This document shows positions 382-59,572 of a DNA stretch of 59,686 nt, piece after piece. The notes under the pieces were generated by a model, which was given only the letters and a program-made list of their open reading frames with translations, was not told where the DNA came from and ran no database searches. Within the stretch, counting starts at the first letter, position 1. Each line of letters starts with the position of its first letter. The stretch is from a bacterium (GTDB lineage Bacteria; SZUA-182; DTGQ01; JAFGSM01): positions 1-59,686 of the forward strand of contig JAFGSM010000151.1 of the NCBI GenBank assembly GCA_016934595.1. Reading direction: 5' to 3'. A program made the translations under genes and the position numbers.

Positions 382-397
382 AGCAATAAACATGCCA
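382..397 (-). promoter_or_regulatory. Sigma-54 (-24/-12) promoter-like element
   Basis: The reverse complement of 382-397 reads TGGCAT-GTTTA-TTGCT, against the consensus TGGCAC-N5-TTGCW. With one flanking T it matches the element at 45547-45563 at 16 of 17 positions. It lies about 185 nt upstream of the ATG at 195. Confidence 0.5.
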
Positions 398-26222: not shown

Positions 26223-26487
26223 TTTCGCTTTCCTTTGTAATTCGATGATCTATAGATGTTCCATCTGCAATTCATAGCAATAAAACAGCAATTTTTTCTA
26301 AAAAATTTAAAAGCAATAAATATGCCAAAATATTTATTGTCGATCTTTTTCGTATATTCTTCCGATAAAATTAAATAGCTGATAAAAAGCAAGCGTTACA
26401 CAGCGACGGCTCATTCGCTTATTAAAAAGGGATAGCCTAAAAGATGTTTTTTATGGGAATAAACAATTAATCAGAATCCACTAATCT

Positions 26488-45396: not shown

Positions 45397-45432
45397 TATA
45401 TATTCGATAGCAATTTGCCCGGCAAAACCTCA

Positions 45433-45449
45433 TGCCGCCTTTTGTCGCC
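45433..45449 (+). promoter_or_regulatory. Candidate enhancer (UAS) motif tgccgccttttgtcgcc
   Basis: About 100 nt upstream of the sigma-54 element at 45548. It resembles the two direct repeats at 52468-52504 (tgcgcctatttttgtcg and tgcgccctttttgtcg). Confidence 0.35.
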
Positions 45450-45547
45450 ACGAAGGATAAAAATAGAATCTATTTTCAATACAAGCCGCAATAATAATCT
45501 TAGGTCAGAAACGTCTAATGTATGGTATAATTGTATATAAATATAAT

Positions 45548-45563
45548 TGGCATATTTATTGCT
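45548..45563 (+). promoter_or_regulatory. Sigma-54 (-24/-12) promoter-like element
   Basis: TGGCAT-ATTTA-TTGCT, correctly spaced, 58-76 nt upstream of the candidate starts of the LVIVD gene (45622 and 45640). Confidence 0.55.
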
Positions 45564-45621
45564 TTTTTAAGGGATAGTTTCCGGCATGAAGAAAATCTTC
45601 AATTGTCTTAATCTTTAATAT

Positions 45622-48600
45622 GTGGGGGAATTGTACTCGATGACAAATCGCCCGTTGACTTTGAAAATAACAAAAGGCATCTGCTTTTTAACATTGCTGA
45701 TTACATCATTGATTATGGCTTTGCCCTATAAAGGTATCTCAGCCCCCCGTATAACTGGCGTTCTGCCCAACCAGGGGCCAAAGGCAGGGGCAAATATAAC
45801 TATTACAGGCGAAGGCTTTTCCCCTGACGACAAGATAACTATCTGGGGCGGCGGGACATATATAAAGGGTTCTTATCCTACAACCGGACCAGCCAATGCA
45901 TTATCCTGTTCGGGCTCTTATGCCTATCTGGCCTGCGGTTCTGAAGGGGAAACAAACGTAAACGGGGTACAGATATTCGATATTCAGGACCGTGCAAATC
46001 CCCGCCCTGTATCCTTTTTTGAACTAACCCAAAAGGCCAATGATATCCTTGTGTTTGGAAATTATGCCTATGTGGCTGATACAGATGGAGGGTTGCAAAT
46101 ACTGGATGTTCATGACCCTAATTCTCCTTCTTTAATCACATCCCTTCTTCTGCCCGATTATATGAATGCACTGAAAATTTCCGTATATGGATCGCATATC
46201 TATATGGCTGCGGACTATGGGGGACTGCTTGTAATAGATATAAGCGATCCTGCAGCGCCTTGTATAACCGGATCATGTGCCTTCCCTCCTGACGGATATG
46301 CGCTGGATGTCATTGCCGAAGGCGATTATGCATACGTAGCGGCAGGGTGGGAAGGGGTAAAGGTGATAAATATAACCAATCCTGCAAATCCCAAACTCAT
46401 CGCAACATTCTCTTCTGGAAGATTCATTTCAGGGATATACAAATATCAAAACTACCTCTATTTGTCTGCAATGAAAAACGGGATAGAGATTGTTGATGTA
46501 TCCGTTCCAGGAAATCCTTTATCTGTAACGAATTTTTCCACCCCGGGGCTGGCTCGAGAAACCTGCGTTATGGGAAACAATCTATATGTGGCGAATGATT
46601 ATTGCGGAGTCGAGGTTTTTAATAATGACATACAAAACTTCTCGATGGTTGGATTTCAGGAGACCCTTGGGCGGGCTGTTGATTTGCAAATCTTTGACAA
46701 TCACATCTTTGTGGCAGGCTCCCAGGGGGGATTTCAGATCATCGACGTTGCAAACTCTAGGAACCCCTCTATTGTCAATATAGCTGATCTAATGGACGGG
46801 GCTACAGGGGTTCAGGTAAGCGGCCTCTATTTGCAAAAAACCCTGCTGTCAAGATATATATATATCTTCAGCAAATCCTATTCCTTTGGACAAAACTGGT
46901 TAAAGATAATAGACGTCTCAGACCCAAAGAATATAAAGTTATTGGGAAGCACTTATGACATAGGTCCCAGGCCTGAAGATCTGGAAGTAAGTCAGGGTTA
47001 CGCCTATCTGGTTGACGGAGATGACGGCCTGCAGGTTTTCAATGTCACGGACAAGCGAAATCCTCAGATGCTCCCCTTTTATGATAATGACACATCGGGC
47101 GGCAGGGGGATATTTTCCCGGGACAACAAACTTTTCCTGGCTGACTCTAAGGCCAATGGCATGGCATCCCTAAAAATCTTTGGTTTAAGTTTGAGCATGT
47201 TTCCCTATTTGGCGGGTGAGAGTCCTCTCAACACCCTCTATGCAAGCGCCGAGGCTATTTGCGGCATGGGAGAAGGTTATGCTATAGTGGCAGCAGGAAC
47301 CGAAGGGATAGAGATCTTTAATGTCCAGACACCTTCTCAGCCATTCAGGCTAAAAAACCTTTCAATCCCAGGGTATATCAATGATGTTATCTCTTCAGGG
47401 CAGCTTGCCTATCTTCTCAATAAAAATGGCCTTGTACAGATTCTCGATACAGGGACGCCCTCAAATCCTGTCATTTTGGGATCTTGCGAGACCATCGGAG
47501 AGGCGAGGTCCTTGTCGCTTATAAATAATCATCTGTATCTGGCTGAATGGGGAACAGGCGTGCATGTCATCGACGTTGTGGATCCTGCAACCCCCCTGGC
47601 GATTGCCTCTTTGAAGACATTGACCCCGCCCGAAGATGTGATAGCTACCGATGACTATATCTATGTGGCCATCGAGAGCGGAATGATGATTTTGGATACG
47701 ATCAAACCATGTCCGTCGGTTTTTTACGTCAACGATACCATGTTAAATGTGGATACCCCTCCTGGATTGTCCTCTGGCACTTATCATATTACCTTGACCG
47801 ATCCCAACGGGCTTATATACTTATTCCCCAACGGGTTTACGGTTGGTGAAAACCATTGTCCAGTAATAACATCTATCAAAGATAATGATAATATAATAGG
47901 CTATGCAGGGGAGGAATTGTCCATTGTCATAGACGCAAATGATGCAGACAACGATCCATTGACCTATTCCGTCTCCCTTTATAAACTCCCTGCAGGCGCC
48001 ACCCTGAACGGGAATGTCTTTTCATGGACACCTGAGATCAAATACACAGGAGGTTTCAGGATATATGAGGATATCGTCTTTACAGTTTCAGACGTTGAAT
48101 GTATAGACGAGAAAAAGATCGATATCTGGATCATCGAGGAAATCTCCAATGTACCGCCAGTCATCGATGTACCGGCAACTTACTACGCCAAAGAGGGAAC
48201 GGCAATGGCCTTTCTGATTGACGCCTACGATTATGATCCAGGTGATTTGAATTCCTTGGATTTTACAGTGCAAAATGCCCCTCAAGGCTCAAGCTTTCGG
48301 ATATTGTCTGTTCAGGCAGATAAGGTAACATGCGGCTTTTTTTGGACACCGACCTATACACAATCAGGCGCCTATGATATAACCTTCGTGGTCAAAGACA
48401 GGCATCTGGCCCAGGGTCAAGCCACTGCTTCTGTCATCGTTCAGAATATTACCGGCCCCATACTTTCAATAAACTTCATAAATGGCCGCAATATATGGAT
48501 ATGCCCTGCGGGCAGGACCAATTATACATCCTTTGATCTTCTCAGAGAATTGGGTGAGGATGCAGTATATTCAATACTGGCTTATGATTGGGACTCCACT

Positions 48601-48723
48601 GTGGTTCATAGCTGTTCCTGGTTTTATGGAAGGCCGTCAGGGGATGATTTTCCAATGAACCAAAGCCGCGTTTATGCAGTCTTCACCAAGGCAGATGTTT
48701 CCTTGTCCTGGCCTATTAACTGA
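45622..48723 (+). CDS. Secreted IPT/TIG + LVIVD-repeat beta-propeller + cadherin-like (putative Ig, He_PIG-type) protein
   Basis: 1033 aa. GTG at 45622 or ATG at 45640. Signal peptide ICFLTLLITSLIMALP. IPT-like PRITGVLPNQGPKAGANITITGEGF. At least 10 LVIVD-type repeats (GGLQILDVHDP, GGLLVIDISDP, EGVKVINITNP, NGIEIVDVSVP, GGFQIIDVANS, DGLQVFNVTD, EGIEIFNVQTP, TGVHVIDVVDP...). Two C-terminal units resemble IVIDANDADNDPLTYSV...LPAGATL. Confidence 0.75.
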   Translation: MGELYSMTNRPLTLKITKGICFLTLLITSLIMALPYKGISAPRITGVLPNQGPKAGANITITGEGFSPDDKITIWGGGTYIKGSYPTTGPANALSCSGSYAYLACGSEGETNVNGVQIFDIQDRANPRPVSFFELTQKANDILVFGNYAYVADTDGGLQILDVHDPNSPSLITSLLLPDYMNALKISVYGSHIYMAADYGGLLVIDISDPAAPCITGSCAFPPDGYALDVIAEGDYAYVAAGWEGVKVINITNPANPKLIATFSSGRFISGIYKYQNYLYLSAMKNGIEIVDVSVPGNPLSVTNFSTPGLARETCVMGNNLYVANDYCGVEVFNNDIQNFSMVGFQETLGRAVDLQIFDNHIFVAGSQGGFQIIDVANSRNPSIVNIADLMDGATGVQVSGLYLQKTLLSRYIYIFSKSYSFGQNWLKIIDVSDPKNIKLLGSTYDIGPRPEDLEVSQGYAYLVDGDDGLQVFNVTDKRNPQMLPFYDNDTSGGRGIFSRDNKLFLADSKANGMASLKIFGLSLSMFPYLAGESPLNTLYASAEAICGMGEGYAIVAAGTEGIEIFNVQTPSQPFRLKNLSIPGYINDVISSGQLAYLLNKNGLVQILDTGTPSNPVILGSCETIGEARSLSLINNHLYLAEWGTGVHVIDVVDPATPLAIASLKTLTPPEDVIATDDYIYVAIESGMMILDTIKPCPSVFYVNDTMLNVDTPPGLSSGTYHITLTDPNGLIYLFPNGFTVGENHCPVITSIKDNDNIIGYAGEELSIVIDANDADNDPLTYSVSLYKLPAGATLNGNVFSWTPEIKYTGGFRIYEDIVFTVSDVECIDEKKIDIWIIEEISNVPPVIDVPATYYAKEGTAMAFLIDAYDYDPGDLNSLDFTVQNAPQGSSFRILSVQADKVTCGFFWTPTYTQSGAYDITFVVKDRHLAQGQATASVIVQNITGPILSINFINGRNIWICPAGRTNYTSFDLLRELGEDAVYSILAYDWDSTVVHSCSWFYGRPSGDDFPMNQSRVYAVFTKADVSLSWPIN

Positions 48724-48742: not shown

Positions 48743-51028
48743 ATGAAGAAAGCGCTCTTGATTTATACTTTAAGCCTCGCCGCCATTCTGAACTTTTTTT
48801 TCGGTATTTTAATGGCGGAATTGGTTATTATCAGCCTGCCTGAAAAGGAAATTGGAGCAATGGATACATTCCCTGTTGGACCATTGGATCCCGTTCAGGC
48901 TGTCAGGCAGCGTCCCGAATGGACTAGCCATCTGGTGCTGGTATGGCAATATGAAACCGATATCCTCAAAGATGAGTCTCTTTATAAGCAGGCCGGACTT
49001 CATGGCTTTCATATAGATCGAGGGGCAGGGGAACATGATCTTGTAAAGTTTTCCATGGAAAAAAGATACCCTTATTATGTGGATCATGCGGCTGGCAAAG
49101 GGATCCTCTATCTACGCAAGGAGGAAAAACACAAAGTCACAGGGAAAAACCATGTGTTCCCTCGTCCATATAGCCTGGCCGATCCTTTGATCATAAATGA
49201 ATTGAAGGACCATCTCCGGAAAAATGTGGATGCGACAAAGAAGGGGTTTGTTCTTGCATACGCCTTCGACGATGAAATATCGCTGGGGTCTTTCAATAAT
49301 CCGGCCGAGGTTGACGTACATCAAATATCTGTGACATGGTACAGGGTCTGGCTCAAGAATCGCTATAAAACGATTTCCCTGCTTAATGAATCATGGGGAA
49401 AGAATTATCAGTCTTTTGAGGATGTTCAGCCTGTCAGCTTCGAGGATATTCGCAAAAATCATGTCAAGCCGCCTTTTGCAGGATGGAATCTCTCCTGCTG
49501 GTCGGAATGGCGGGCGTTTATGGACTTTCAATTTGCCAGTGTGCTTTCCGACCTCACTCGTTATACAAACGGGCTTGATCCCAATATTCCAGCAGGCTTT
49601 GTGGGAGGGCAAGGGCCATCCGCATACGGCGGATATGACTATTCGCTCCTGTGCCGCGCCGTGCAGTGGATGGAAGCCTACGATTATAACGGCACAGCCG
49701 AGTTGCTGAGGTCATTCTGGGACGACCCGCGCCGGATACGTATGCAGACCTACTTCACAGGTGATGATTATTATAAGAATTCATGGGCGCTGTGGTACCG
49801 TATTGCAAATGGCTGCCAGGGCAGCATTGCATGGCCTTCCGGATGGTTCAACATAAATTCCGAGACAGGCAAACGCGAACCTTCGAAAAAACTTACGGAG
49901 ATCGCTCAGACGCTTCGAGATGCTCAGGGGAAGGCCAGCGAATTCATCTCGCATCCTGATACCGTTCTGGATACAGATCCTATCGGGATTTATTATTCAC
50001 ACCCAAGCGTCCGGGCCGGATGGGTAATGGACTGCATCGTACACGGCAGCACCTGGCCAAAACGGTCGAGTTCCATAGATGACGACAATCTCACTTCAGG
50101 CAAACTTCGGGTCTCCTGGTGCAAATTACTCGAAGATACCGGATATCAATACAATTTTATAAGCTACCTTGATGTACAGGAAAAAAGGATAGACCTGTCT
50201 GAAAGATATAAGGTCATCATTATGCCTCAGATTATCTGTATCTCTGACGCAGAAGCAACGGCTTTGAGTGAATTCGTCTCACGGGGAGGCGTTTTGATTG
50301 CGGACGCACTTTGTGGTTTAATGACTGAAACAGGCAAGGGACGTTCAAAGGGGGCGATAGACGATGTTTTTGCCATATCCCGCAAAGAATCCCTCGGTTA
50401 TATGAACGGGAGATCCATTACAGAGATTAATGGAGAGCTTTACAACAAACCACTGGAGCAGCGTCTTGAGGCTTACAATGGCGCAATCAAGTATAAAGAC
50501 ATGATTGTCTATGAAAGGGGCACAAAGGGGCTAAGTAAAAAAGCGGAACCTGCAGGCACTGCTGATGTGCATATAACCAACTATTACAAGAAAGGAAAGG
50601 CTCATTACCTCAACCTGACGCCTGTGGCCTATCATCACTATCCTTTTCGCAATGGGAAGATGGGCAAACAATGGCGAAAGATCATAAACGCCCTATTGAA
50701 GGATGCAGGGCTCAATCCAAGGGTCGAAGTCATCGAGGACGGCTCAACATCTCCTTTAATCGAGTCTTTACTATGGCGAAATGGGAATCGATACTGTCTG
50801 GCGCTCATAAAAAACTATTCTTACTCTGAAGGTATATCCGGAGAATGGATATTTGACGGCGGAAAGATTGAGCCCGGAGAGGTCACGATACATATAAAAC
50901 TGAATCTTGACGTCAAGGGCATAAAGAACATCCGCACAGGCAAGGATTTCGGCAGCGTTAATGGATTCAGTGATTCCTTCAGGGAATGGGAGGCCAATTT
51001 TTACGAGTTCGAAGAAAGGAATTTCTAA
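48743..51028 (+). CDS. Exported glycoside-hydrolase-family-42-like protein (GH42 N-terminal + trimerisation-type domains)
   Basis: The track ORF starts at 48674. I prefer the ATG at 48743 (MKKALLIYTLSLAAILNFFFGILMA, a signal/anchor). WYRVWLKNRYKTISLLNESWGKNYQSFEDVQP resembles the GH42 segment (W...Y.....LN.AWG). YKVIIMPQIICISDAEATALSEFVSRGGVLIAD resembles the GH42 middle (trimerisation) domain. Confidence 0.5.
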   Translation: MKKALLIYTLSLAAILNFFFGILMAELVIISLPEKEIGAMDTFPVGPLDPVQAVRQRPEWTSHLVLVWQYETDILKDESLYKQAGLHGFHIDRGAGEHDLVKFSMEKRYPYYVDHAAGKGILYLRKEEKHKVTGKNHVFPRPYSLADPLIINELKDHLRKNVDATKKGFVLAYAFDDEISLGSFNNPAEVDVHQISVTWYRVWLKNRYKTISLLNESWGKNYQSFEDVQPVSFEDIRKNHVKPPFAGWNLSCWSEWRAFMDFQFASVLSDLTRYTNGLDPNIPAGFVGGQGPSAYGGYDYSLLCRAVQWMEAYDYNGTAELLRSFWDDPRRIRMQTYFTGDDYYKNSWALWYRIANGCQGSIAWPSGWFNINSETGKREPSKKLTEIAQTLRDAQGKASEFISHPDTVLDTDPIGIYYSHPSVRAGWVMDCIVHGSTWPKRSSSIDDDNLTSGKLRVSWCKLLEDTGYQYNFISYLDVQEKRIDLSERYKVIIMPQIICISDAEATALSEFVSRGGVLIADALCGLMTETGKGRSKGAIDDVFAISRKESLGYMNGRSITEINGELYNKPLEQRLEAYNGAIKYKDMIVYERGTKGLSKKAEPAGTADVHITNYYKKGKAHYLNLTPVAYHHYPFRNGKMGKQWRKIINALLKDAGLNPRVEVIEDGSTSPLIESLLWRNGNRYCLALIKNYSYSEGISGEWIFDGGKIEPGEVTIHIKLNLDVKGIKNIRTGKDFGSVNGFSDSFREWEANFYEFEERNF

Positions 51029-52393
51029 ATGCGCCCTTTAACGATTTTGTTAATAGATGACGAGGACAGGCAGTTGCAATTATTGAAGGAATTCTTGACA
51101 TACAGCGGATTTGATGTTTTTACCGCCAATAAAGGCCCTGACGGGTATGAAATAGCCCAAAAAAATACCATAGACCTTGTGCTAACGGACTTCCGTATGC
51201 CTGAATGGAATGGTCTTGAGGTTTTGAAAAAGATAAAAGGCTTGAATCCGGATATAGATGTCGTGGTAATGACCGCCTTCAGGAATGTTGAAGATGCTTT
51301 AGAAATCATGAAGGCTGGGGCATACGATTACCTGGCCAAACCTGTAGACATGGATGAACTGGAAAATCTGGTAAAACGTGTGCAGGAGAAGCGGATGCTT
51401 GCTGCCGAAAACCGTTTGCTGAAACAACAGCTGCAACAAAAATACAATTTCAGCGGCATATTTTCACAAAGCGGCGAGATGGAAGAGGTACTGAATATGG
51501 CGGGCAGGGTAGCCCCTGGCAAGACAACTGTTTTGGTTAGAGGCGAAAGCGGCACAGGCAAAGAGCTGATTACAAAGGCGATTCACTTTGCCAGCCCGAG
51601 AAAAGACAAACCATTTGTAGTGGTAAACGTGGCGGCATTATCCGAAAGCCTCCTTGAAAGCGAATTGTTCGGATATGAAAAGGGCGCCTTTACAGGGGCA
51701 AACCATCAAAGGATAGGACGTTTTGAGCAGGCTGATGGAGGCACCCTGTTCATAGACGAGGTTGGCGACATCCCCCTTTCCGTTCAGGTAAAGCTGTTAA
51801 GGGCAATTCAATTCGGGCAAATTGAAAGGCTTGGCGGAAACAAAACAATAAGCGTCGATGTCCGTATAGTAGCCGCGACAAACCGAAACATAGAAGAGAT
51901 GATAAAAAATGGCGAGTTTCGGGAAGACCTGTATTACAGGTTGAATGTAGTAACCATTTGGCTGCCTCCCCTTAGAAAGCGAAAAGCTGACATACCCTTA
52001 TTAGCAGAGCAATTTATCAAAAAATTCTCGCAGGAAAACAAGAAGAATGTAAAGGGCGTGTCAAGAGAGGCATTGGACCTGCTAATGAAACACGACTTCC
52101 CCGGCAATGTAAGGGAACTGGAGAACATCATTGAAAGGGCCGTAGTATTTTGCAGGGATGAATATATCACCCGGCAAGACCTGCCTTCTCAATTCGGTCT
52201 TGTCTCCGAAAAGGATATCTTAAATCCGCACCATTTGCATGATGGCTACAAGAATAAAATGAGGCAGTTTGAAACCGAAATGATTCAAGAAGCGATCAAT
52301 ATCTGCAATGGAAATCAAAGGGCTGCAGCAAGGTTATTGAACATCACTGAAAGGCATTTGCGGTACCGGTTAGAAAAACTGGGCCTTAAATAG
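51029..52393 (+). CDS. Sigma-54-dependent response regulator (NtrC family: REC + AAA+ + Fis-type HTH)
   Basis: 454 aa. REC DLVLTDFRMPEWNG. Walker A GESGTGKE. The sigma-54 contact loop ESELFGYEKGAFTGA. C-terminal HTH NQRAAARLLNITERHLRYRL. The ATG abuts the stop of the previous gene. Confidence 0.92.
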   Translation: MRPLTILLIDDEDRQLQLLKEFLTYSGFDVFTANKGPDGYEIAQKNTIDLVLTDFRMPEWNGLEVLKKIKGLNPDIDVVVMTAFRNVEDALEIMKAGAYDYLAKPVDMDELENLVKRVQEKRMLAAENRLLKQQLQQKYNFSGIFSQSGEMEEVLNMAGRVAPGKTTVLVRGESGTGKELITKAIHFASPRKDKPFVVVNVAALSESLLESELFGYEKGAFTGANHQRIGRFEQADGGTLFIDEVGDIPLSVQVKLLRAIQFGQIERLGGNKTISVDVRIVAATNRNIEEMIKNGEFREDLYYRLNVVTIWLPPLRKRKADIPLLAEQFIKKFSQENKKNVKGVSREALDLLMKHDFPGNVRELENIIERAVVFCRDEYITRQDLPSQFGLVSEKDILNPHHLHDGYKNKMRQFETEMIQEAINICNGNQRAAARLLNITERHLRYRLEKLGLK

Positions 52394-52467: not shown

Positions 52468-52504
52468 TGCGCCTATTTTTGTCGCAATTGCGCCCTTTTT
52501 GTCG
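52468..52504 (+). promoter_or_regulatory. Direct repeat pair tgcgcc(t/c)(a)tttttgtcg, 21-nt register: candidate enhancer-binding-protein sites
   Basis: 52468-52484 is tgcgcctatttttgtcg and 52489-52504 is tgcgccctttttgtcg. They lie 80-115 nt upstream of the sigma-54-like element at 52582. A related motif is found at 45433. Confidence 0.4.
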
Positions 52505-52581
52505 TATTTTCCTCAGGGCCAACTTGCCCGAAAAATTCTTATTATCTTTATTTTCAATATGTTATTTTAACAAAGCAGGTT

Positions 52582-52597
52582 TGGCACGATAATTGTA
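52582..52597 (+). promoter_or_regulatory. Sigma-54 promoter-like element (weaker -12)
   Basis: TGGCAC-GATAA-TTGTA. The -24 half is perfect, but the -12 half has GT instead of the conserved GC. It lies directly downstream of the sigma-54 activator gene. Confidence 0.4.
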
Positions 52598-52689
52598 TAT
52601 TAAATAAGTAACCAGAGATTCTTAAAGTACCAAGAATCAAAAATAGCTGGTTATAGAAATATTAAACAGTTTTTTAGAAGGTATTGATA

Positions 52690-53055
52690 ATGATAATAAC
52701 CATGAGCCATAAAAAAAGTGCAGGAAATGGAATCAGTCTATGTAACTGCTTTGAGACTACAGGACACTCTAATCGGCAACATAGGGGAAATAGTGGAGGA
52801 TGCAGATATTATGGCAACAGTAATTATGGCAATGAATCCAGCACGGGGTCACGGAAATATAAAAGATCATCCCAAGCATCTTATGGATGCGGCAGTTCCA
52901 TCAAATATAGAGATATCATCCTTGACAAAGGATTTAATATAAATGATTTAGGCAGACTGAGCAATCAGCCACCTTATATAAATATTGCACCCATATTTAT
53001 TTTTACAAACCATTACGTTAAAAATTTTTCATATTTATTCCCACCATCTCCTTAA
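52690..53055 (+). CDS. Hypothetical small Gly/Ser/Asn/Tyr/Cys-rich protein (frame uncertain)
   Basis: The ATG at 52690 lies 8 nt after agaagg. The 121-aa product includes GNSGGCRYYGNSNYGNESSTGSRKYKRSSQASYGCGSS. The stop is 13 nt before a strong hairpin. An alternative 71-74-aa frame (52718/52727..52942) has no good RBS. No homologue was recognised for either frame. Confidence 0.3.
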   Translation: MIITMSHKKSAGNGISLCNCFETTGHSNRQHRGNSGGCRYYGNSNYGNESSTGSRKYKRSSQASYGCGSSIKYRDIILDKGFNINDLGRLSNQPPYINIAPIFIFTNHYVKNFSYLFPPSP

Positions 53056-53068
53056 AAGTGTGTCGCTT

Positions 53069-53107
53069 GTGAAAAAGTGCAGGCAATTATAACCTGCACT
53101 TTTTCAC
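53069..53107 (+). terminator. Perfect 15-bp stem-loop (terminator-like; no clear U-tract)
   Basis: gtgaaaaagtgcagg (53069-53083), loop caattataa, cctgcactttttcac (53093-53107). Confidence 0.5.
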
Positions 53108-53388: not shown

Positions 53389-55500
53389 ATGAAACACTTC
53401 TTGGAAAGACGCAATCGCGTTTGGAATGTACATATCAGCTTCTTAATCGTCATTGCGGTTGTTTGTTTTTTATTATTTGAATCGGCAATAACCGTTTCCA
53501 TGTCCAGCGCCAGCACAAGGCGCAAGATTCAGGAAGAGACTATGGATTTTACAGACATGAGTCTGGAAGAGCTGAAACAGGTCATGATCATTTCCATATT
53601 AAAAAAACCTCAAAAGCTCTCAGACGCTACATCTGCGATCTCTGTAATAACTCAGGAAGACATCCGCAGGTCAGGGGTGACAAACATCCCTGAACTGCTA
53701 AGAAGCGTGCCAGGATTCCAGGTGGCACAGATCAGCTCAAACACGTGGGCTGTAAGCGCCCGTGGCTTCAATAACCGTTTTGCCAATAAGCTTTTGGTGC
53801 TTATGGACGGAAGAAGTGTTTATAAACCCCTTTTTTCCGGCGTCCATTGGGGTGCGCAAGATACGATCCTTGAGGATATTGAGCGCATTGAAGTGATAAG
53901 GGGCCCAGGGGCGACATTGTGGGGAGCCAATGCAGTAAATGGTGTAATCAATATCATTACAAAGGATGCCGAGGATACTCAGGGAGGTCTTATTACATCA
54001 GGATGGTTTAATGAAGACCGTAATTTCAATGCATTCCGCTATGGCGGGAAGTTAAACAATAATGATGCTTACTGGAGGCTATATCTGAAATATTCTGAAA
54101 GGGATAGCTTTTTAACCGAAGACAGGGACGACCTCAGCAACAACTGGAATTCGGTCAGAGGAGGAGGCCGGCTCGACTGGTCTCTTACAGAGAGGGACTC
54201 TCTTTCAATGCAAGGCGAAATTTATGAAGGCAGGGATGGCGAGAGGATGACACGCCCTTATGAACCGGTACCATTTTACCCGCCGGACAAGGCGAGTGTA
54301 GAGAGAGAAAGAGACGACATCGACAATAATTATTTCGGCGCAAATCTTTTATGCCATTGGAGGCATACATTCTCTAATACATCCGACATGACTTTTCAAT
54401 TGTATTATGATCAAACCAAACAGGACATAGATTATATATATTATTACGACAACATCTGCGCTGAAGATAAAAAAATCACCACCACGAACTTCGCCAATCA
54501 AACCTATAAGGAAAGGTTTGATATCTTAGATTTCGACCTCCAGCATAACTTCAGATTGAGCATGCGGCACGAAATCGTATGGGGGCTTGGATACCGTTTC
54601 ATAAAGGACATCTTTGAGGTTAGAGGCATTGGAGGAACCGCCACCTTTCTCAATCCTGAAAGACGGAACACCCAGCTGGTCAGCGGATTCGTTCAGTACG
54701 GCACAGACCTCGTTATGGACAGGCTTAAGATGACTCTGGGATCAAAGTTTGAGGATAATGACTATACTGGCTTTGAATACCAGCCCAGCGTAAGAATATT
54801 GTGGAGGCTTACAGAAAGACAAAATTTCTGGGCCGCTGTTTCCCGTGCGACCAGGACACCATCCCGCTTTGAGACAGATTATTTTGAACATTCAACCAAT
54901 ATTGGGTCTGAAGAGCTCATCGCCTACGAGTTAGGATACCGGATTCAGCCCGCAGATTATTTTTCTATGGATTTGACCGGTTTCTATAATGAGTACGACA
55001 ATCTTATTGCCTTTATTAAAGATAAATACAAATTGGATATATCAAAGAAAAATATTGCAGGAGGACAGACATATGGCGGAGAAATGTCGGCAAACTGGGA
55101 TGCCTTGAAATGGTGGAGGCTTCGCGGCTCTTATGCATACATGGAAATTAGCATCAACATCGACAAAGACATCTATGCTTCACATGATATATTTTTCGAA
55201 AGGATCAACCCTCGAAACCAATTTTCCCTTCTATCTTCTATGGACCTTTTCAGGGTTCTGGAATTCGATGTGGACATAAGGCATGTGGATAGCCTTTCAA
55301 ACTACATAAAAGGCTATGAGGAAATGGATGCGCGCCTTGGCTGGATACCAAGGAAAAACATGGAAATATCCTTAATCGGACAGAACCTTCTAAACAAGAG
55401 CCATCCCGAATTCGTGTACGTAGGGTTCCCCCCTATTTCTATATGGGAAACCATAGAGGTTGAGCGCAGGGTCTATGGAAAAATAACATGCCGATTTTAG
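53389..55500 (+). CDS. TonB-dependent outer-membrane receptor
   Basis: 703 aa. gggagg RBS. Plug region SAISVITQEDIRRSGVTNIPELLRSVPGFQV...LVLMDGRSVY...IERIEVIRGPGATLWGANAVNGVINIITK. C-terminal aromatic residue (...ITCRF). Confidence 0.9.
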   Translation: MKHFLERRNRVWNVHISFLIVIAVVCFLLFESAITVSMSSASTRRKIQEETMDFTDMSLEELKQVMIISILKKPQKLSDATSAISVITQEDIRRSGVTNIPELLRSVPGFQVAQISSNTWAVSARGFNNRFANKLLVLMDGRSVYKPLFSGVHWGAQDTILEDIERIEVIRGPGATLWGANAVNGVINIITKDAEDTQGGLITSGWFNEDRNFNAFRYGGKLNNNDAYWRLYLKYSERDSFLTEDRDDLSNNWNSVRGGGRLDWSLTERDSLSMQGEIYEGRDGERMTRPYEPVPFYPPDKASVERERDDIDNNYFGANLLCHWRHTFSNTSDMTFQLYYDQTKQDIDYIYYYDNICAEDKKITTTNFANQTYKERFDILDFDLQHNFRLSMRHEIVWGLGYRFIKDIFEVRGIGGTATFLNPERRNTQLVSGFVQYGTDLVMDRLKMTLGSKFEDNDYTGFEYQPSVRILWRLTERQNFWAAVSRATRTPSRFETDYFEHSTNIGSEELIAYELGYRIQPADYFSMDLTGFYNEYDNLIAFIKDKYKLDISKKNIAGGQTYGGEMSANWDALKWWRLRGSYAYMEISINIDKDIYASHDIFFERINPRNQFSLLSSMDLFRVLEFDVDIRHVDSLSNYIKGYEEMDARLGWIPRKNMEISLIGQNLLNKSHPEFVYVGFPPISIWETIEVERRVYGKITCRF

Positions 55501-56063
55501 GAGATAAATCTGTAAAGATCTTTTTGCTGGGGGCCGTTATTGTTTTTTGTACTTTGATGTTCAGCAGGCTTCCAGGACATGCCCAGGCATTGTTTGCGCC
55601 AGAGTATCAGGTTAAGGCCGCCTTTATCTATAATTTCGCCAAATTTGTCGAATGGCCTAACGGCACTTTCAATAGCGAAACCGATCCTGTAATTCTTTGC
55701 ATCTTCCCAAACAGCCCTAAGAACGATGTCTTTTTATCCCTGACCGGAAAGACAGTAGGAGGGAAGAGGATGGAGGTAAAAAAATGTGAGAACATAGAAT
55801 ATATCGAAGGCTGTCATATCCTTTTTATCGATTCAACTGACAAAAAGATCATCAGGGAATGTCTGAAAAGGGTTAAAGACTGGAGTGTATTAACAGTAGG
55901 ACATAGCAAGGGATTCACTCAAGAAGGGGGCATCATAAATTTTTTCACGGATGAAGGCAAGATAAAGTTTGAGGTGGATTTAGAAGCTGCAAAGCGCTGC
56001 GGATTGAAGTTAGGGTCACAGATCCTTATGTCTGCCGAGATCATCACAAAGGAATCCAGGTAA
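55488..56063 (+). CDS. YfiR-family (DUF4154) periplasmic protein
   Basis: 191 aa. Signal peptide, then YQVKAAFIYNFAKFVEWP, typical of DUF4154. The start overlaps the receptor gene end by 13 nt. Confidence 0.75.
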   Translation: MPILGDKSVKIFLLGAVIVFCTLMFSRLPGHAQALFAPEYQVKAAFIYNFAKFVEWPNGTFNSETDPVILCIFPNSPKNDVFLSLTGKTVGGKRMEVKKCENIEYIEGCHILFIDSTDKKIIRECLKRVKDWSVLTVGHSKGFTQEGGIINFFTDEGKIKFEVDLEAAKRCGLKLGSQILMSAEIITKESR

Positions 56064-56069
56064 CAACAT

Positions 56070-58403
56070 ATGAGATCTTTCCGAAATATCTCGATCAAAC
56101 AAAAGCTTATCATTGTTATTATATTCACAAGCTGGTTTACCCTGCTGGTTGCATCTATAGCCTTTATGGCAAAAGATATTATAACCTTTCGGCATACTCT
56201 GGCAAACGACATATCCAGCCTGGCTCAGGTTATTGGCATGAACAGCTCAGGCGCCCTTGTATTCAATGACCCAAAAACTGCAGAGAAGAATCTGTCTGCA
56301 TTGCAAACAAAACCATATGTCTCTTTTGCTTGCATCTATGATAAGGATGGGAATGTATTCGCCACGTTTCCACATCAGATAGAAGACTATGCGCCAGTTC
56401 CGCCCATGCCTCAGAAAACCCGACACTACTTTGAAAACAAACATCTGTTTTTGTTTCATGAAATCCTTCTTGAAGAGGAACTGATAGGGACAATCTTTAT
56501 TCAGTATGACCTGGAAGAGATCCGTTTAAGAGTAAAGCAATCAGGCGCCATCGTTGCGGCAATCATTGCAGTAGCCTTTCTGCTTGCTGCGGTTCTCTCG
56601 TTTTTGCTCCAGCGCCTCATTTCCGAGCCTATTCTAAACCTGGCCCAGACTACCAGGGCCATTTCACAGGGAAAGGATTATTCGATAAGGGCAAAAAAAC
56701 AGGGACAGGATGAAATAGGCACTCTTATTGATGGCTTTAATGAGATGCTGACCGAGATCCAGAGACGGGATGATGAGCTTAAGCTTCATCGGGGTCACCT
56801 TGAAGAGGAGGTGGCTGCCCGTACAGCCGAATTAAGAACACAGCAGAAGATCCTGCAAAAGGCATTGAGCCGGGCCGAACAATTAGCCGTAGAGGCAGAA
56901 GCCGCAAACAGGGCAAAGAGTGAATTTCTGGCCAATATGAGTCATGAAATCCGCACCCCAATGAATGCGATAATAGGCTTCACCGATTTGCTCGATTCAC
57001 TTATTACCGATAAAAGTCAAAAGAATTATCTTGAATCGATCAAATCTAGCGGAAAGAATCTATTGACCTTGATAAATGACATCCTTGACCTCTCTAAAAT
57101 CGAGGCTGGAAAGATGGATCTTCATTACGAGCCCGTAAACCCTTATTTCATCTTCAGCGAGATCGAGCAGATCTTTTCTTTGAACATATCCGGAAAAGGG
57201 CTTGAATTCATAAAAGACATTTCCCATGACATACCTGAGAGCCTGCTCCTGGACGAGGTGCGTTTAAGGCAGGTTTTATTCAACCTGGTAGGAAATGCCA
57301 TAAAATTTACAGAAAAGGGATATATAAAACTATCCGCAAGGAGGGCCATTAAAAATTACGAAAAAAGCGCCGTTGATCTAACCCTGGCTATAGAAGACAC
57401 CGGAATCGGAATCGACCCGAAATTTTACGGGAATATATTTGAGGCATTCAAACAGCAGGATGGGCAAAGCACCAAAAGATATGGAGGCACAGGGTTGGGA
57501 CTGGCGATTTCGAAGCGGTTGGTGGAAATTATGGGCGGAACATTATCTGTGAGAAGCGAACCAGGCAAAGGAAGCATTTTTGAGATTGCACTTAAAGATG
57601 TATCGATTTCTGCGACCACTGCCAAACCCAAAAAGACCAAAATGTTTGACCATGATAATATATCGTTTGGAAAAGCGGCGATGATGGTCGTTGATGACAT
57701 TCCGGTCAACCGCAAGCTGATAATAGAATATCTTAAAAACACTGATATAATTATAATAGAAGCCGACAATGGCGAACAAGCGATTTTGCGTGCCCAGACA
57801 CACAAGCCGGACATTATCGTAATGGATATAAAAATGCCCGTTATGGATGGATATGAGGCCATCCAGTATTTAAAGAAACATGATGATTTAAAAAGGATAC
57901 CTGTTATAGCTCTTACTGCTTCAGGGATGAAGAAGGACAAGGCAAAGATACAGGCAAGCGGTTTTGACGGCTTTCTTATGAAACCCGTTCAACTCTCTGA
58001 TTTGTTCAGTGAGCTGTCACGATTTCTTAAATTCTCAAGAAAGGAACGGGATGGACAAAAAAGCGCAAAAGGAGAGGATACATTACAACAGGAAAGGCTT
58101 TCGCCTGAGATTTTAACAAGAATGCCGCAGATAATCGGCGACCTTAAGGGCGAATATATGGAAACATGGAAGCTGGTACGGCGGAGCGGGCTCTTTGATG
58201 ATATATCAAACTTTGGGAAACAGATAAAAGATACAGGCGATAAATATTCATTGAAGTCCCTTCAAAGATTTGGCGCAAATTTGATTTTATACGCCGGCAG
58301 TTTTGATATCGAAAAGATGAGCGCAGCGTTAGACTCCTATCCTGAATTGATTGTAAAATTGGAACTATTATATCAGGAACAGATCCGTGGAGGGCGAAAA
58401 TGA
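56070..58403 (+). CDS. Hybrid sensor histidine kinase (CHASE8-like sensor + HAMP + HisKA + HATPase + REC + C-terminal extension)
   Basis: 777 aa. The N-terminal IKQKLIIVIIFTS...DISSLAQVIGMNSSGALVFNDPKTAEKNLSALQTKPYV...IYDKDGNVFATF pattern is recalled as CHASE8-type. H-box SHEIRTPMNAI. G-boxes GTGLGLAISKRLVEIMGG. REC VVDDIPVNR...MDIKMPVMDG. Confidence 0.85.
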   Translation: MRSFRNISIKQKLIIVIIFTSWFTLLVASIAFMAKDIITFRHTLANDISSLAQVIGMNSSGALVFNDPKTAEKNLSALQTKPYVSFACIYDKDGNVFATFPHQIEDYAPVPPMPQKTRHYFENKHLFLFHEILLEEELIGTIFIQYDLEEIRLRVKQSGAIVAAIIAVAFLLAAVLSFLLQRLISEPILNLAQTTRAISQGKDYSIRAKKQGQDEIGTLIDGFNEMLTEIQRRDDELKLHRGHLEEEVAARTAELRTQQKILQKALSRAEQLAVEAEAANRAKSEFLANMSHEIRTPMNAIIGFTDLLDSLITDKSQKNYLESIKSSGKNLLTLINDILDLSKIEAGKMDLHYEPVNPYFIFSEIEQIFSLNISGKGLEFIKDISHDIPESLLLDEVRLRQVLFNLVGNAIKFTEKGYIKLSARRAIKNYEKSAVDLTLAIEDTGIGIDPKFYGNIFEAFKQQDGQSTKRYGGTGLGLAISKRLVEIMGGTLSVRSEPGKGSIFEIALKDVSISATTAKPKKTKMFDHDNISFGKAAMMVVDDIPVNRKLIIEYLKNTDIIIIEADNGEQAILRAQTHKPDIIVMDIKMPVMDGYEAIQYLKKHDDLKRIPVIALTASGMKKDKAKIQASGFDGFLMKPVQLSDLFSELSRFLKFSRKERDGQKSAKGEDTLQQERLSPEILTRMPQIIGDLKGEYMETWKLVRRSGLFDDISNFGKQIKDTGDKYSLKSLQRFGANLILYAGSFDIEKMSAALDSYPELIVKLELLYQEQIRGGRK

Positions 58404-59572
58404 TCTACAGTTACAGAAAAAAATCCAAAATACTGATTGTTGATGACGTCCCTCAAAATATCCAGGTGCTTGCAAATATATTAAAAGAAGAAGGATATCA
58501 GATGGGATTTGCCAAAGATGGCAAGACTGCCCTTGCCCATACCGACTCCGTTCAATTCGATTTGATCATCCTGGATATTATGATGCCTGACATGGATGGT
58601 TTTGAGGTATGTGAGCGCCTGAAAAAGGATAAAAAGAAAAGGGATATTCCTGTCATTTTTGTCACGGCAAAGGATGAGACTTCCGATAAGACCAGAGGAT
58701 TTGAGCTTGGGGCCGTAGATTACATCACCAAACCTTTTGACGCACAGGAAGTCCTTGCAAGGATAAAAACCCACATAAGTCTTCGAAATTATACCATAAG
58801 ATTAGAAGAAATGGTCGAAGAAAGGACTCGTCAGCTGATCCATGCTGACCGTCTTGCCACGCTGGGTATGTTTTCCGCTGCAGTAGCACACGAAATTAAA
58901 AATCCGCTGTCATATATCATGGGAAGCGCAAAGATTTTACAGATTTTTTGGAAATCAGCAAAGCCGGTCCTGGAAAAAACCCTGATTCAGGATGAAGAGG
59001 GAAAACATCTCAAAGAGTTAGGAAACATTGAAGAAAAGATAGACAATATCCTGCATGGCAGCAATCGCATATCAAGGCTTATAGACGGCATGAAAAAATA
59101 TTCAAGACAGGGCAATGTTATATTCCAGGATAAAACGCCGCTTGCTGAAATAATCAAGGACTCTCTGGACATTGTTAGCCATAGGCTAAACCCCTCAGGG
59201 ATAAAGGTCAACGTGGATATCCCTCCATATCTGACAATATATTGTGATCAACAAAAGATTTCCCAGGTGTTTGTAAATCTAATAAATAATTCATGCGATG
59301 CCATAGCGGAGAAAGGCGGAGAAATAGAGATAAAAGCGGCCGCTGTAAATAACCAGGCCGAAATAATTTTCAAAGACGACGGCCCTGGCATCCCCAGCGA
59401 AACAGCCGAAAAAATATTCGACCCCTTCTTTACCACAAAAGGCAAGGGAGAAGGGACAGGACTTGGGCTCTTTATAGTAAGCCGTATCATTGAAGAGCAT
59501 CAAGGAAAGATTTCATTATCCTCCTGTAACACAAAAGGGGCTGCTTTTCGGATCGTATTGCCTTTGGCTTGA
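58400..59572 (+). CDS. Receiver-histidine kinase fusion (REC + HisKA + HATPase)
   Basis: 390 aa. ATGA overlap with the upstream kinase. REC ILIVDDVPQN...LDIMMPDMDG...TKPF. H-box AHEIKNPLSYI. ATPase GTGLGLFIVSRIIEEHQG. Confidence 0.88.
   Translation: MIYSYRKKSKILIVDDVPQNIQVLANILKEEGYQMGFAKDGKTALAHTDSVQFDLIILDIMMPDMDGFEVCERLKKDKKKRDIPVIFVTAKDETSDKTRGFELGAVDYITKPFDAQEVLARIKTHISLRNYTIRLEEMVEERTRQLIHADRLATLGMFSAAVAHEIKNPLSYIMGSAKILQIFWKSAKPVLEKTLIQDEEGKHLKELGNIEEKIDNILHGSNRISRLIDGMKKYSRQGNVIFQDKTPLAEIIKDSLDIVSHRLNPSGIKVNVDIPPYLTIYCDQQKISQVFVNLINNSCDAIAEKGGEIEIKAAAVNNQAEIIFKDDGPGIPSETAEKIFDPFFTTKGKGEGTGLGLFIVSRIIEEHQGKISLSSCNTKGAAFRIVLPLA

What the first reader, a model, noticed from the sequence alone, without database searches (positions are those of the whole stretch)
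45433..45563. Sigma-54 promoter plus upstream motif in front of the LVIVD-GH42-activator genes (possible autoregulated unit)
Seen in sequence:
- TGGCAT-ATTTA-TTGCT at 45548-45563 with correct GG-N10-GC spacing.
- About 100 nt upstream, tgccgccttttgtcgcc (45433-45449) and the palindrome tttgcc-c-ggcaaa (~45414-45426).
- Related strings (tgcgcc..tttttgtcg twice, and caacttgcccgaaaa) lie upstream of the second sigma-54-like element at 52582.
- The only sigma-54 activator in the window (51029-52393) is the last gene of this unit.

Inference: the activator drives its own operon, and the shared motifs are its enhancer sites.
Basis: partly seen in the sequence, partly recalled or inferred. Interest (0 to 1): 0.62.

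Follow-up and report, generated by a model that had tools for sequence, protein, structure and literature searches.

The report
Sigma-54 operon with possible self-activation
A strong sigma-54 promoter drives a three-gene operon (a surface LVIVD protein, a GH42-like protein and a sigma-54 activator); the activator's true DNA box sits in front of the next promoter downstream, and only a degenerate copy sits in front of its own operon, so self-activation is plausible but unproven and the arrangement is an ordinary kind.

Summary
TGGCATATTTATTGCT (45548-45563) is the third-best sigma-54 site in this 3.16-Mb sediment MAG. RpoN is encoded, and such sites are strongly enriched in non-coding DNA. The site heads a tight operon: LVIVD protein, a 19-nt gap, GH42-like protein, a 0-nt gap, then the only sigma-54 activator (bEBP) in the window.

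Twelve orthologs of the activator (61-77% identity), plus a paralog on contig C71, define its cognate box. The box is TCG(C/A)CC-N-GGTCGA (TCGMC-N6-GTCG). It lies about 85-90 nt, and again 21 nt further, upstream of unusual TGGCAC-N5-TTG(T/A) promoters. The window's repeats at 52469-52504, ahead of the 52582 element, fit this exactly.

The element at 45435-45447 is rare and starts at the same offset (-113) as the distal box at 52469. However, its spacer is 2 nt too short, its left arm is imperfect, and its promoter is of a different type.

Orthologs have a single box and a sigma-54 promoter ahead of their own gene, so self-activation is a family trait. Their conserved neighbour is the TonB-receptor/YfiR-like/CHASE8-kinase cassette, never LVIVD or GH42-like genes.

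Verdict: the promoter and operon are solid, and direct autoregulation is about even odds. This is a new member of a known kind.

The parts
45548..45563 (+). Sigma-54 (RpoN) -24/-12 promoter, TGGCAT-ATTTA-TTGCT (P45548). The expected transcription start is near 45574.
   Evidence: Sequence read. PWM score 27.0 bits, rank 3 genome-wide. It is intergenic, 74 nt before GTG 45622 and 92 nt before ATG 45640. RpoN is present in the genome.
45435..45447 (+). It is a degenerate, short-spaced copy of the activator's box.
   Evidence: It starts at -113 from the TGG, the same offset as distal box B1 of P52582. It is one of only 14 CGCC-N3-8-GTCG hits in 435 kb of non-coding DNA. It fails the fixed-spacing PWM built from relatives.
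45414..45426 (.). Perfect palindrome TTTGCC-C-GGCAAA, of unknown role.
   Evidence: Unique in the genome. It lies 18 nt after the stop of the upstream gene. The local RNA fold is no better than shuffled sequence (z = -0.43).
45460..45476 (.). AT-rich palindrome AAAATAG-AAT-CTATTTT. It sits where a proximal box would be expected and is followed by ATTTTCAATA.
   Evidence: No function has been shown.
45640..48723 (+). Gene 1: a secreted or anchored IPT/TIG + LVIVD beta-propeller + He_PIG/Big_9 protein. An alternative start is GTG 45622.
   Evidence: Pfam LVIVD, E = 1e-53. Translation. Orthologs at 43-50% identity.
48743..51028 (+). Gene 2: a GH42-like protein with an N-terminal hydrophobic anchor. 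An alternative start is ATG 48674.
   Evidence: Weak Pfam hits to GH42 and GH42M. A 50%-identical ortholog in G011 lies in a PEP-CTERM/exosortase locus.
51029..52393 (+). Gene 3: an NtrC-family response-regulator bEBP (REC, AAA+ with GAFTGA, Fis-type HTH). Its ATG directly abuts the TAA of gene 2.
   Evidence: Pfam hits. Junction. The alignment shows GAFTGA and a conserved recognition helix. It scores below all NCBIfam equivalog cut-offs.
52469..52484 (+). Distal cognate box B1, GCGCC-N7-GTCG.
   Evidence: Its centre is 106.5 nt from the GG of P52582. It is 21 nt from B2, as in the box pairs of the orthologs.
52490..52504 (+). Proximal cognate box B2, GCGCC-N6-GTCG.
   Evidence: It scores 18.1 bits with a PWM built only from relatives, the third-best non-coding hit in the genome. 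Its centre is 86 nt from the GG, matching 85-88 nt in C71, G011 and G009.
52553..52564 (+). IHF-like block TTCAATATGTTA between the boxes and the promoter.
   Evidence: It is conserved at the same offset in P52582, in the C71 paralog's promoter and in G009. The IHF assignment rests on resemblance to the WATCAANNNNTTR consensus and is an inference.
52582..52597 (+). Second sigma-54 promoter, TGGCAC-GATAA-TTGTA (P52582), with a non-canonical -12. This is the activator's best-supported target.
   Evidence: Its PWM score is only 10.7 bits. However, near-identical elements accompany every ortholog. It is the only such promoter in the genome with boxes upstream.
53389..59572 (+). TonB-dependent receptor / DUF4154 (YfiR-like) / CHASE8 hybrid kinase / REC-kinase cassette. 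It is the conserved genomic partner of the activator and its probable signal input.
   Evidence: Pfam hits. Synteny with the activator's orthologs in G011, G009, G006 and metagenome locus L021.

Best explanation
The element at 45548-45563 is a genuine, very strong RpoN (sigma-54) promoter. It transcribes a three-gene operon: an exported LVIVD beta-propeller protein, a membrane-anchored GH42-like protein and, as the last gene, an NtrC-type response-regulator activator (bEBP).

This activator family recognises a dyad box, TCG(C/A)CC-N-GGTCGA, with its arms 6 nt apart. In this genome the left arm reads GCGCC. The box lies about 86 nt upstream of the -24 GG, often with a second box 21 nt further up. 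The promoters involved are unusual, TGGCAC-N5-TTG(T/A), and usually have an IHF-like site in between.

The clear target in the window is the next promoter downstream, 52582, with boxes at 52469-84 and 52490-52504. The element at 45435-45447 is a degenerate copy of the box, with a short spacer, placed at exactly the distal-box offset ahead of the operon's own promoter.

The most likely reading is a positive feedback loop. The activator is probably phosphorylated by the neighbouring TonB-receptor/YfiR-like/CHASE8 kinase cassette. It then binds this weak site and, by DNA looping, stimulates RpoN-polymerase at 45548, raising its own level together with the two surface proteins.

Shown: the promoter's quality, the operon's packing, the box definition and its geometry. 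Inferred: binding at site A, the feedback loop and the kinase partnership.
For: Promoter:
- It ranks 3rd of all sites in the genome.
- RpoN is present.
- -24/-12 matches are about 4-fold enriched in non-coding DNA.

Operon:
- The gaps are 19 nt and 0 nt.
- There is no other sigma-54 site and no credible terminator inside it.

Box:
- In an assumption-free 6-mer count over 22 promoter-upstream segments from relatives, TCGACC/GGTCGA and TCGCCC are each in 13 of 22 against about 0.9 expected (P about 1e-13).
- The geometry is constant at 85-88 nt.
- The recognition helix ITERHLR(S/Y)RLEKLGLK is conserved.
- B2 is the third-best non-coding hit for a PWM built only from relatives.

Site A:
- The loose box occurs only 14 times in 435 kb of non-coding DNA.
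- Such boxes are enriched upstream of sigma-54 sites (4 of 24 against 2.5% expected, P = 0.003).
- Site A starts at -113, identical to B1. The chance of a loose box within 3 nt of that offset is about 1e-4.

Family behaviour:
- Orthologs in G011, G009, G006, L020 and L021 have a single box plus a sigma-54 promoter directly ahead of their own gene.
Against: - Site A has an N4 spacer. About 20 credible boxes have N6 and two have N7.
- Its left arm, CCGCC, lacks the T/G-C-G start.
- It scores negative under the fixed-spacing PWM.
- No proximal box is present, and the IHF-like block is displaced.
- P45548 is a canonical TGGCAT..TTGCT promoter, identical in core to the one ahead of the RpoS-like gene. 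It is not the family's TTG(T/A) type.
- No other genome links LVIVD or GH42-like genes to this activator, so the site cannot be footprinted phylogenetically.
- A 66%-identical paralog on C71 with nearly the same recognition helix could be the protein that binds.
- About 20 other bEBPs exist in the genome.
- No transcript data were obtainable.
Confidence: 0.5

Rival explanations
1. Cascade, not a loop. P45548 is a real sigma-54 promoter, but it is fired by a different activator, one of the ~20 other bEBPs. The activator gene at 51029 is a passenger that lost its own promoter when the LVIVD/GH42-like pair came to lie in front of it. Site A is then a decayed relic of a box, or simply part of the 3' end of the upstream gene.
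For: - Site A's spacer and left arm violate the otherwise near-invariant box rule.
- The promoter type differs from every promoter tied to this regulator family.
- LVIVD orthologs elsewhere sit in sigma-54-dependent clusters with a different conserved upstream element and no linked bEBP. The LVIVD gene may therefore have arrived with its own sigma-54 regulation.
- In relatives the activator has a private promoter, and that promoter is missing here.
Against: - The rarity of the motif, together with its exact coincidence with the distal-box offset, is hard to ascribe to chance.
- No alternative enhancer shared with other strong sigma-54 promoters was found upstream of P45548.
- The foreign clusters' upstream element is absent here.
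Confidence: 0.33
2. Cross-regulation by the paralog. Site A, and possibly boxes B1 and B2, are bound mainly by the C71 bEBP (66% identical, near-identical recognition helix). The LVIVD operon would then answer to the paralog's signal and not to its own product.
For: - The C71 paralog has the same layout: bEBP gene, two boxes (one of them GCGCC-N6-GTCGA), an IHF-like block, then TGGTAC-N5-TTGAT.
- Its HTH differs from the window's at only a few positions.
Against: - Each paralog has its own well-formed box pair next to its own gene, which suggests insulated pairs.
- There is no positive evidence that site A prefers one protein over the other.
Confidence: 0.1
3. Site A is not a regulatory protein site at all. 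It is either the 3' arm plus T-run of a weak intrinsic terminator of the upstream 1181-aa gene (CGGCA-N8-TGCCG then CCTTTTGT), or the -35 hexamer of a sigma-70-type promoter (TTGTCG-16-TAGAAT, 45442-45469). Its resemblance to the boxes is coincidental.
For: Both patterns were flagged by the consensus scan. The element lies only about 40 nt after the stop codon at 45396.
Against: - The hairpin folds no better than shuffled sequence (z = -0.43).
- Terminator-like and sigma-70-like hits in the region are not more frequent than in shuffles.
- This reading does not explain the offset coincidence or the motif's rarity.
Confidence: 0.07

Closest known systems
The glnAp2-glnA-ntrB-ntrC (glnALG) operon of enteric bacteria (from general knowledge, not tested here)
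   Same: A sigma-54 promoter with upstream activator sites drives an operon whose last gene encodes the NtrC-type response-regulator activator itself. This gives positive feedback. The enhancer sites lie about 100-140 nt upstream and act by DNA looping.
   Different: The structural genes here are a secreted LVIVD propeller protein and a GH42-like protein, not glutamine synthetase. No kinase gene lies in the operon; the likely kinases are in the next cassette. The candidate site is single and degenerate, and the box sequence is unrelated to the NtrC site. The protein scores below the NtrC equivalog cut-off.
ZraSR/ZraP and AtoSC-type two-component sigma-54 systems (the best NCBIfam hits, AtoC and ZraR)
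   Same: The REC-AAA+-HTH architecture is the same, with full-length similarity (484 and 443 bits). The activator acts on promoters adjacent to its own gene, and in ZraR's case on its own operon too.
   Different: The scores are well below the equivalog cut-offs (714 and 760 bits), so this is not an ortholog. The neighbouring genes differ (a TonB receptor/YfiR-like/CHASE8 kinase cassette), and so does the box.
PrsK/PrsR, the PEP-CTERM-box sigma-54 regulator of exosortase loci (TIGR02915)
   Same: It is an NtrC-family response regulator in an organism that carries a PrsT-like protein (2348-4753, above cut-off). In G011 the GH42-like gene's ortholog sits in a PrsK/PrsR/PrsT locus.
   Different: The window's activator scores 419.5 bits against a cut-off of 502.6, while the G011 PrsR scores 563. 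Its conserved partner is the TonB/YfiR-like cassette, not PrsK. The LVIVD and GH42-like proteins show no PEP-CTERM tail.
Comparative-genomics EBP regulons of Desulfovibrio vulgaris (Kazakov et al. 2015, PMC4641369)
   Same: The logic and the outcome are the same: EBP genes co-localised with conserved sigma-54 promoters and palindromic upstream motifs, with some EBPs proposed to be autoregulated.
   Different: The lineage is different. No counterpart of this TonB/DUF4154-linked regulator or of its box was found in the text searches.

Membership tests
Sigma-54 (RpoN) dependent promoter | Conserved GG and GC dinucleotides exactly 10 nt apart, matching TGGCAC-N5-TTGCW | tested here: met
   TGGCAT-ATTTA-TTGCT is at 45548-63. 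It scores 27.0 bits and ranks 3 genome-wide.
Sigma-54 (RpoN) dependent promoter | The organism encodes RpoN and bEBPs | tested here: met
   Sigma54_DBD scores 204 bits on C123 in a 495-aa open frame. About 20 full PF00158 genes are present.
Sigma-54 (RpoN) dependent promoter | Intergenic position, oriented toward a downstream gene at a plausible distance | tested here: met
   It is 74-92 nt ahead of the LVIVD gene, on the same strand.
Sigma-54 (RpoN) dependent promoter | Transcription starts about 12 nt after the GC and depends on RpoN and an activator | not testable with these tools
   The only metatranscriptome of the study gave no coverage.
NtrC-family response-regulator bEBP | REC domain with an acceptor Asp, AAA+ sigma-54 interaction domain with the GAFTGA loop, and a C-terminal Fis-type HTH | tested here: met
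   Pfam Response_reg (1e-29), Sigma54_activat (3e-71) and HTH_8 (4e-11). GAFTGA and the TDFRMP acceptor region are visible in the alignment.
Named equivalogs AtoC / ZraR / NtrC / PrsR | Score above NCBIfam's curated equivalog cut-off | tested here: not met
   Scores against cut-offs: 484 vs 714, 443 vs 760, 424 vs 559, 419.5 vs 502.6.
Cognate box of this bEBP family (defined here) | Arms TCG(C/A)C and GTCG separated by 6 nt | tested here: not met
   Site A is CCGCC-N4-GTCG and scores negative with the fixed-spacing PWM. B2 meets the rule (18.1 bits). B1 and the C172 site have N7.
Cognate box of this bEBP family (defined here) | Position about 86 nt or about 107 nt upstream of the -24 GG of a sigma-54 promoter | tested here: met
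   Site A's centre is 108 nt from the GG and it starts at -113, identical to B1.
Cognate box of this bEBP family (defined here) | Associated promoter of the TGGCA(C/T)-N5-TTG(T/A) type | tested here: not met
   P45548 has a canonical TTGC at -12. All 22 promoters near orthologs have TTGA or TTGT, though that set was collected with a pattern requiring this.
Autoregulated sigma-54 operon (glnALG-like) | The activator gene is co-transcribed from the promoter it activates | tested here: inconclusive
   Co-transcription is strongly suggested by the 19-nt and 0-nt gaps. Activation of P45548 by this protein rests only on the degenerate site A.

The most novel reading that the evidence does not exclude
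The activator and the adjacent TonB-dependent receptor / YfiR-like / CHASE8 hybrid kinase / REC-kinase cassette form a conserved, uncharacterised pathway that carries an outer-membrane signal to sigma-54. The pathway has its own box (TCGMCC-N-GGTCGA) and its own promoter dialect (TTGT or TTGA at -12). In this organism the pathway has captured a surface LVIVD propeller and a GH42-like protein into its positive-feedback loop. An envelope or substrate signal sensed at the outer membrane would then remodel the cell surface or its polysaccharide next to the giant-cytochrome genes.
Probability: 0.3. Interest if true: 0.5.

Novelty: new member of a known kind. Interest (0 to 1): 0.3.

Why it matters
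Sigma-54 promoters with upstream activator sites, and activators that feed back on their own operon, are textbook arrangements. The finding itself is therefore ordinary.

What the work adds is a concrete, testable regulon for an uncultured sediment lineage:
- a defined DNA box,
- a fixed geometry of about 86 nt and about 107 nt,
- an unusual but conserved -12 element,
- a conserved partnership between this activator and a TonB-receptor/YfiR-like/kinase cassette that has no output regulator of its own.

This gives a handle on what controls a secreted LVIVD protein, a poorly understood repeat family, in an organism rich in giant multihaem cytochromes.

Tried and rejected
1. Transcript evidence. 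The one metatranscriptome from the same study held only stray matches to the conserved AAA+ core and nothing on the promoter.
2. Phylogenetic footprinting of P45548. The GH42-like gene has one ortholog among 60 relatives, in a different context (an exosortase locus). The genome-contig scan found none. LVIVD orthologs lie in a different, bEBP-free cluster.
3. PrsR / PEP-CTERM identity for the activator. Rejected by the NCBIfam cut-off.
4. A shared enhancer between P45548 and other strong sigma-54 promoters, including the identical core ahead of the RpoS-like gene. Only AT-rich k-mers are shared.
5. A shared element with the foreign LVIVD-cluster promoters. Absent.
6. An intrinsic terminator at 45420-45437. 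The fold is no better than shuffles.
7. An internal sigma-54 promoter ahead of the activator, or one ahead of the TonB receptor gene. None scores 8 bits or more.
8. Known RNA families in the intergenic regions. None found.
9. Literature on DUF4154/YfiR + TonB + sigma-54 modules. No papers found.
10. The proposed link between the palindrome TTTGCC-C-GGCAAA and 'cttgcccgaaaa'. Both are the only non-coding hits of a loose pattern, but they sit at -130 and -54 from their respective GGs and have no consistent counterpart in relatives. This is left unexplained.

Full report
**Observation**

- TGGCAT-ATTTA-TTGCT at 45548-45563,
- tgccgccttttgtcgcc at 45433-45449,
- the perfect palindrome TTTGCC-C-GGCAAA at 45414-45426,
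- ahead of TGGCACGATAATTGTA (52582-52597), two tandem copies of tgcgcc..tttttgtcg (52468-84 and 52489-52504), followed by cttgcccgaaaaa.

The gene at 51029-52393 is a REC / sigma-54-interaction / HTH_8 protein. It is the only PF00158 gene on this contig.

**Is the promoter real?**

The window is contig C231 of a 3.16-Mb, 272-contig, 43.8% GC assembly found in sediment metagenomes. The genome encodes RpoN and about 20 bEBPs.

- Of 71 exact TGGCA-N6-TTGC matches genome-wide, 37 lie in the ~14% of the genome that my crude ORF map leaves non-coding. Almost all TGGCAT..TTGCT-type hits face an ORF 30-300 nt away.
- With a PWM built from those sites, 45548 scores 27.0 bits and ranks third in the genome.
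- The identical 16-mer at 26312-26327 (minus strand), ahead of an RpoS/RpoD-like sigma gene, ranks first.
- A third site, at 382-397 (minus strand), ranks eighth.

The promoter call is therefore solid, short of a mapped transcription start.

**Operon**

- The LVIVD gene most likely starts at ATG 45640, behind a GGGGGA ribosome-binding site; GTG 45622 is the alternative. It ends at 48723.
- The GH42-like gene has an in-frame ATG at 48743 that opens a hydrophobic anchor, leaving a 19-nt gap.
- Its TAA (51026-28) directly abuts the activator's ATG.
- Within the unit there is no other sigma-54 site scoring 8 bits or more.
- Terminator-like and sigma-70-like hits inside the unit are no more frequent than in shuffled sequence.

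The activator is thus very probably transcribed from P45548.

**What does the activator bind?**

The protein is a generic NtrC-family regulator. It scores below the curated cut-offs for AtoC, ZraR, NtrC and PrsR.

Clear orthologs exist in three same-order genomes: G011, G009 and G006, the last with two copies. They are 70-76% identical, while the next paralogs reach only 52% or less. Eight more orthologs come from metagenome contigs at 61-77%.

Next to essentially all of them lie sigma-54 promoters of an unusual dialect, TGGCA(C/T)-N5-TTG(A/T). These are preceded by a dyad box such as ATCGCCCATTTGGTCGAG.

I ran an assumption-free 6-mer count over 22 promoter-upstream segments (-140 to -40) from relatives only. 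The top words were GGTCGA/TCGACC and TCGCCC, each present in 13 of 22 segments against about 0.9 expected (P about 1e-13).

The geometry is fixed:
- The proximal box centre lies 85-88 nt from the GG in the window (B2), in the own-genome paralog on C71, in G011 and in G009.
- Where a second box exists it lies 21 nt further upstream.
- An IHF-like block, T(T/C)CAATATGTTA, is conserved at -29 in three of these promoters.

The recognition helix is nearly invariant, ITERHLR(S/Y)RLEKLGLK, so transferring the specificity from relatives to the window is reasonable. A PWM built only from the relatives' sites scores window box B2 at 18.1 bits, the third-best non-coding hit in the genome.

The repeats ahead of 52582 are therefore this activator's enhancer, and P52582 is its best-supported target despite a weak generic score of 10.7 bits. 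P52582 is the only non-canonical promoter in the genome that has boxes upstream.

**Is the 45433-45449 element such a site?**

*For:*
- The loosest version of the box, CGCC-N3-8-GTCG, occurs only 14 times in 435 kb of non-coding DNA. Five of those lie 80-108 nt upstream of sigma-54-type promoters: site A, B1, B2, C71 and C172. The enrichment test gives P = 0.003.
- When promoters are anchored on the TGG, site A starts at -113, exactly where distal box B1 starts in P52582. The chance of a loose box within 3 nt of that offset is about 1e-4. This estimate is post hoc.
- The promoters directly ahead of activator orthologs carry a single box (G011, G009, L020, L021). A lone site is therefore normal for the family's autoregulatory promoter, and self-activation is a family trait.

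*Against:*
- Site A is CCGCC-N4-GTCG. About 20 credible boxes have N6 and two have N7 (B1 and C172).
- Its left arm lacks the T/G-C-G start, and it scores negative under the fixed-spacing PWM.
- The proximal position is occupied by an unrelated AT-rich palindrome, and the IHF-like block is displaced.
- The promoter itself is canonical, not the family's dialect.
- A 66%-identical paralog on C71, with almost the same recognition helix and the same box layout, could be the protein that binds.

Two non-regulatory readings of site A are weak. One is a 5-bp hairpin plus T-run after the upstream gene; the other is the -35 of a sigma-70-like promoter. The hairpin folds no better than shuffles (z = -0.43), and neither pattern is enriched in the region.

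**Genomic context**

The activator's conserved neighbour is the cassette of TonB-dependent receptor, DUF4154 (YfiR-like), CHASE8 hybrid kinase and REC-kinase (window 53389-59572). It is usually transcribed divergently from the activator, as in G011, G009, G006 and L021. That cassette has no DNA-binding output of its own. The activator is therefore its likely output, although this is an inference from synteny.

LVIVD and GH42-like genes are never linked to the activator elsewhere:
- The GH42-like ortholog in G011 sits in a PEP-CTERM/exosortase polysaccharide locus with PrsK, PrsR and PrsT.
- LVIVD orthologs (43-50% identity) end a conserved cluster of two NHL-like genes, a Big_5 protein of about 800 aa and the LVIVD gene. 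That cluster has its own sigma-54 element, [TC]GGTAT-N5-TTGCA, and a distinct upstream motif that is absent from the window.

The three-gene unit is therefore a lineage-specific fusion. Either the pair was inserted between the activator and its ancestral box and promoter, or it arrived with a foreign sigma-54 promoter and displaced the activator's own.

**Verdict**

| Claim | My estimate |
|---|---|
| Promoter and operon are real | about 0.85-0.9 |
| Boxes ahead of 52582 are the activator's enhancer | about 0.85 |
| Direct positive autoregulation through site A | about 0.5 |
| Cascade from another bEBP (main rival) | about 0.33 |

This is a new member of a well-known kind, comparable to the glnAp2-glnA-ntrBC logic, and of modest interest. 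No known structured RNA lies in the intergenic regions. No literature on this module was found. The closest methodological precedent is the Desulfovibrio EBP regulome study (PMC4641369).

**Caveats**

- Gene calls are from a crude longest-ORF map.
- The box list was partly gathered with regular expressions, so some columns are invariant by construction. The 6-mer test does not have this bias.
- The motif statistics for site A are post hoc.

Noticed in passing
window 26312-26327 (-), ahead of 25212-26222 (-): The identical 16-mer TGGCATATTTATTGCT is the best sigma-54 site in the genome (27.4 bits). It sits 105 nt ahead of a group-2 sigma-70-family gene (RpoS/RpoD-like, below the equivalog cut-offs). 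This suggests an RpoN-to-alternative-sigma cascade.
   Followed up: partly
window 382-397 (-), ORF starting about 194 (-) and running off the window: A third strong sigma-54 site, TGGCATGTTTATTGCT (rank 8), lies ahead of a signal-peptide protein made of Tyr/Ser-rich repeats (…YDPYSSYYGSSYSPYSSYYGSS…).
   Followed up: no
window 52582-53107: The activator's clear target, P52582, is followed by an RBS-preceded small ORF rich in G, S, N, Y and C (ATG 52690 to 53055, no family hit). A perfect 15-bp hairpin (53069-53107) follows, with no U-tract after it. Readthrough into the TonB cassette is therefore possible, and no promoter was found ahead of 53389.
   Followed up: partly
L012 (G011), L013 (G009), L020, L021: between the TonB receptor gene and the activator gene: In relatives the TonB/YfiR-like/kinase cassette has its own conserved sigma-54 promoter, [AG]GGCATT-N-TTTTTGCA, divergent from the activator's. 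The window has no equivalent, because the activator there is co-directional with the cassette and upstream of it.
   Followed up: partly
genome contig C71:16337-20115: A paralogous module: a sigma-54 site (TGGCATAAATATTGAA), a 681-aa gene, a bEBP 66% identical to the window's, two boxes, an IHF-like block, then TGGTAC-N5-TTGAT.
   Followed up: partly
genome contig C172:3177-3590: A further likely regulon member. TCGCC-N7-GTCGC lies about 82 nt ahead of TGGCATAACAAATGCT, followed by a 300-nt leader with internal repeats and a second strong box (TATCGCCCATTTGGATGTAC, reverse strand). These sit just before a REC-only regulator and sensor kinases.
   Followed up: partly
L011 (G011:C10) and window 2348-4753: The GH42-like gene's only ortholog among relatives lies in a PEP-CTERM/exosortase polysaccharide locus (Wzy_C, GT4s, an asparagine synthase, a PEP-CTERM protein behind a sigma-54 site, and PrsT/PrsK/PrsR). 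The window itself encodes a PrsT-like TPR protein that scores above its cut-off.
   Followed up: partly
L016-L019, about 110-160 nt upstream of the second NHL-like gene: Foreign LVIVD clusters (two NHL-like genes, a Big_5 protein, then the LVIVD gene) share a [TC]GGTAT-N5-TTGCA element. They also share a conserved upstream block, …CTTATCTGCATTTTTTTTCA…, which is a candidate enhancer for an unidentified activator.
   Followed up: partly
window about 45477: A contig from a second sediment metagenome (run X2, about 95-97% identical elsewhere) stops matching the window right after 45477, between site A and the promoter. It continues with unrelated sequence.
   Followed up: no
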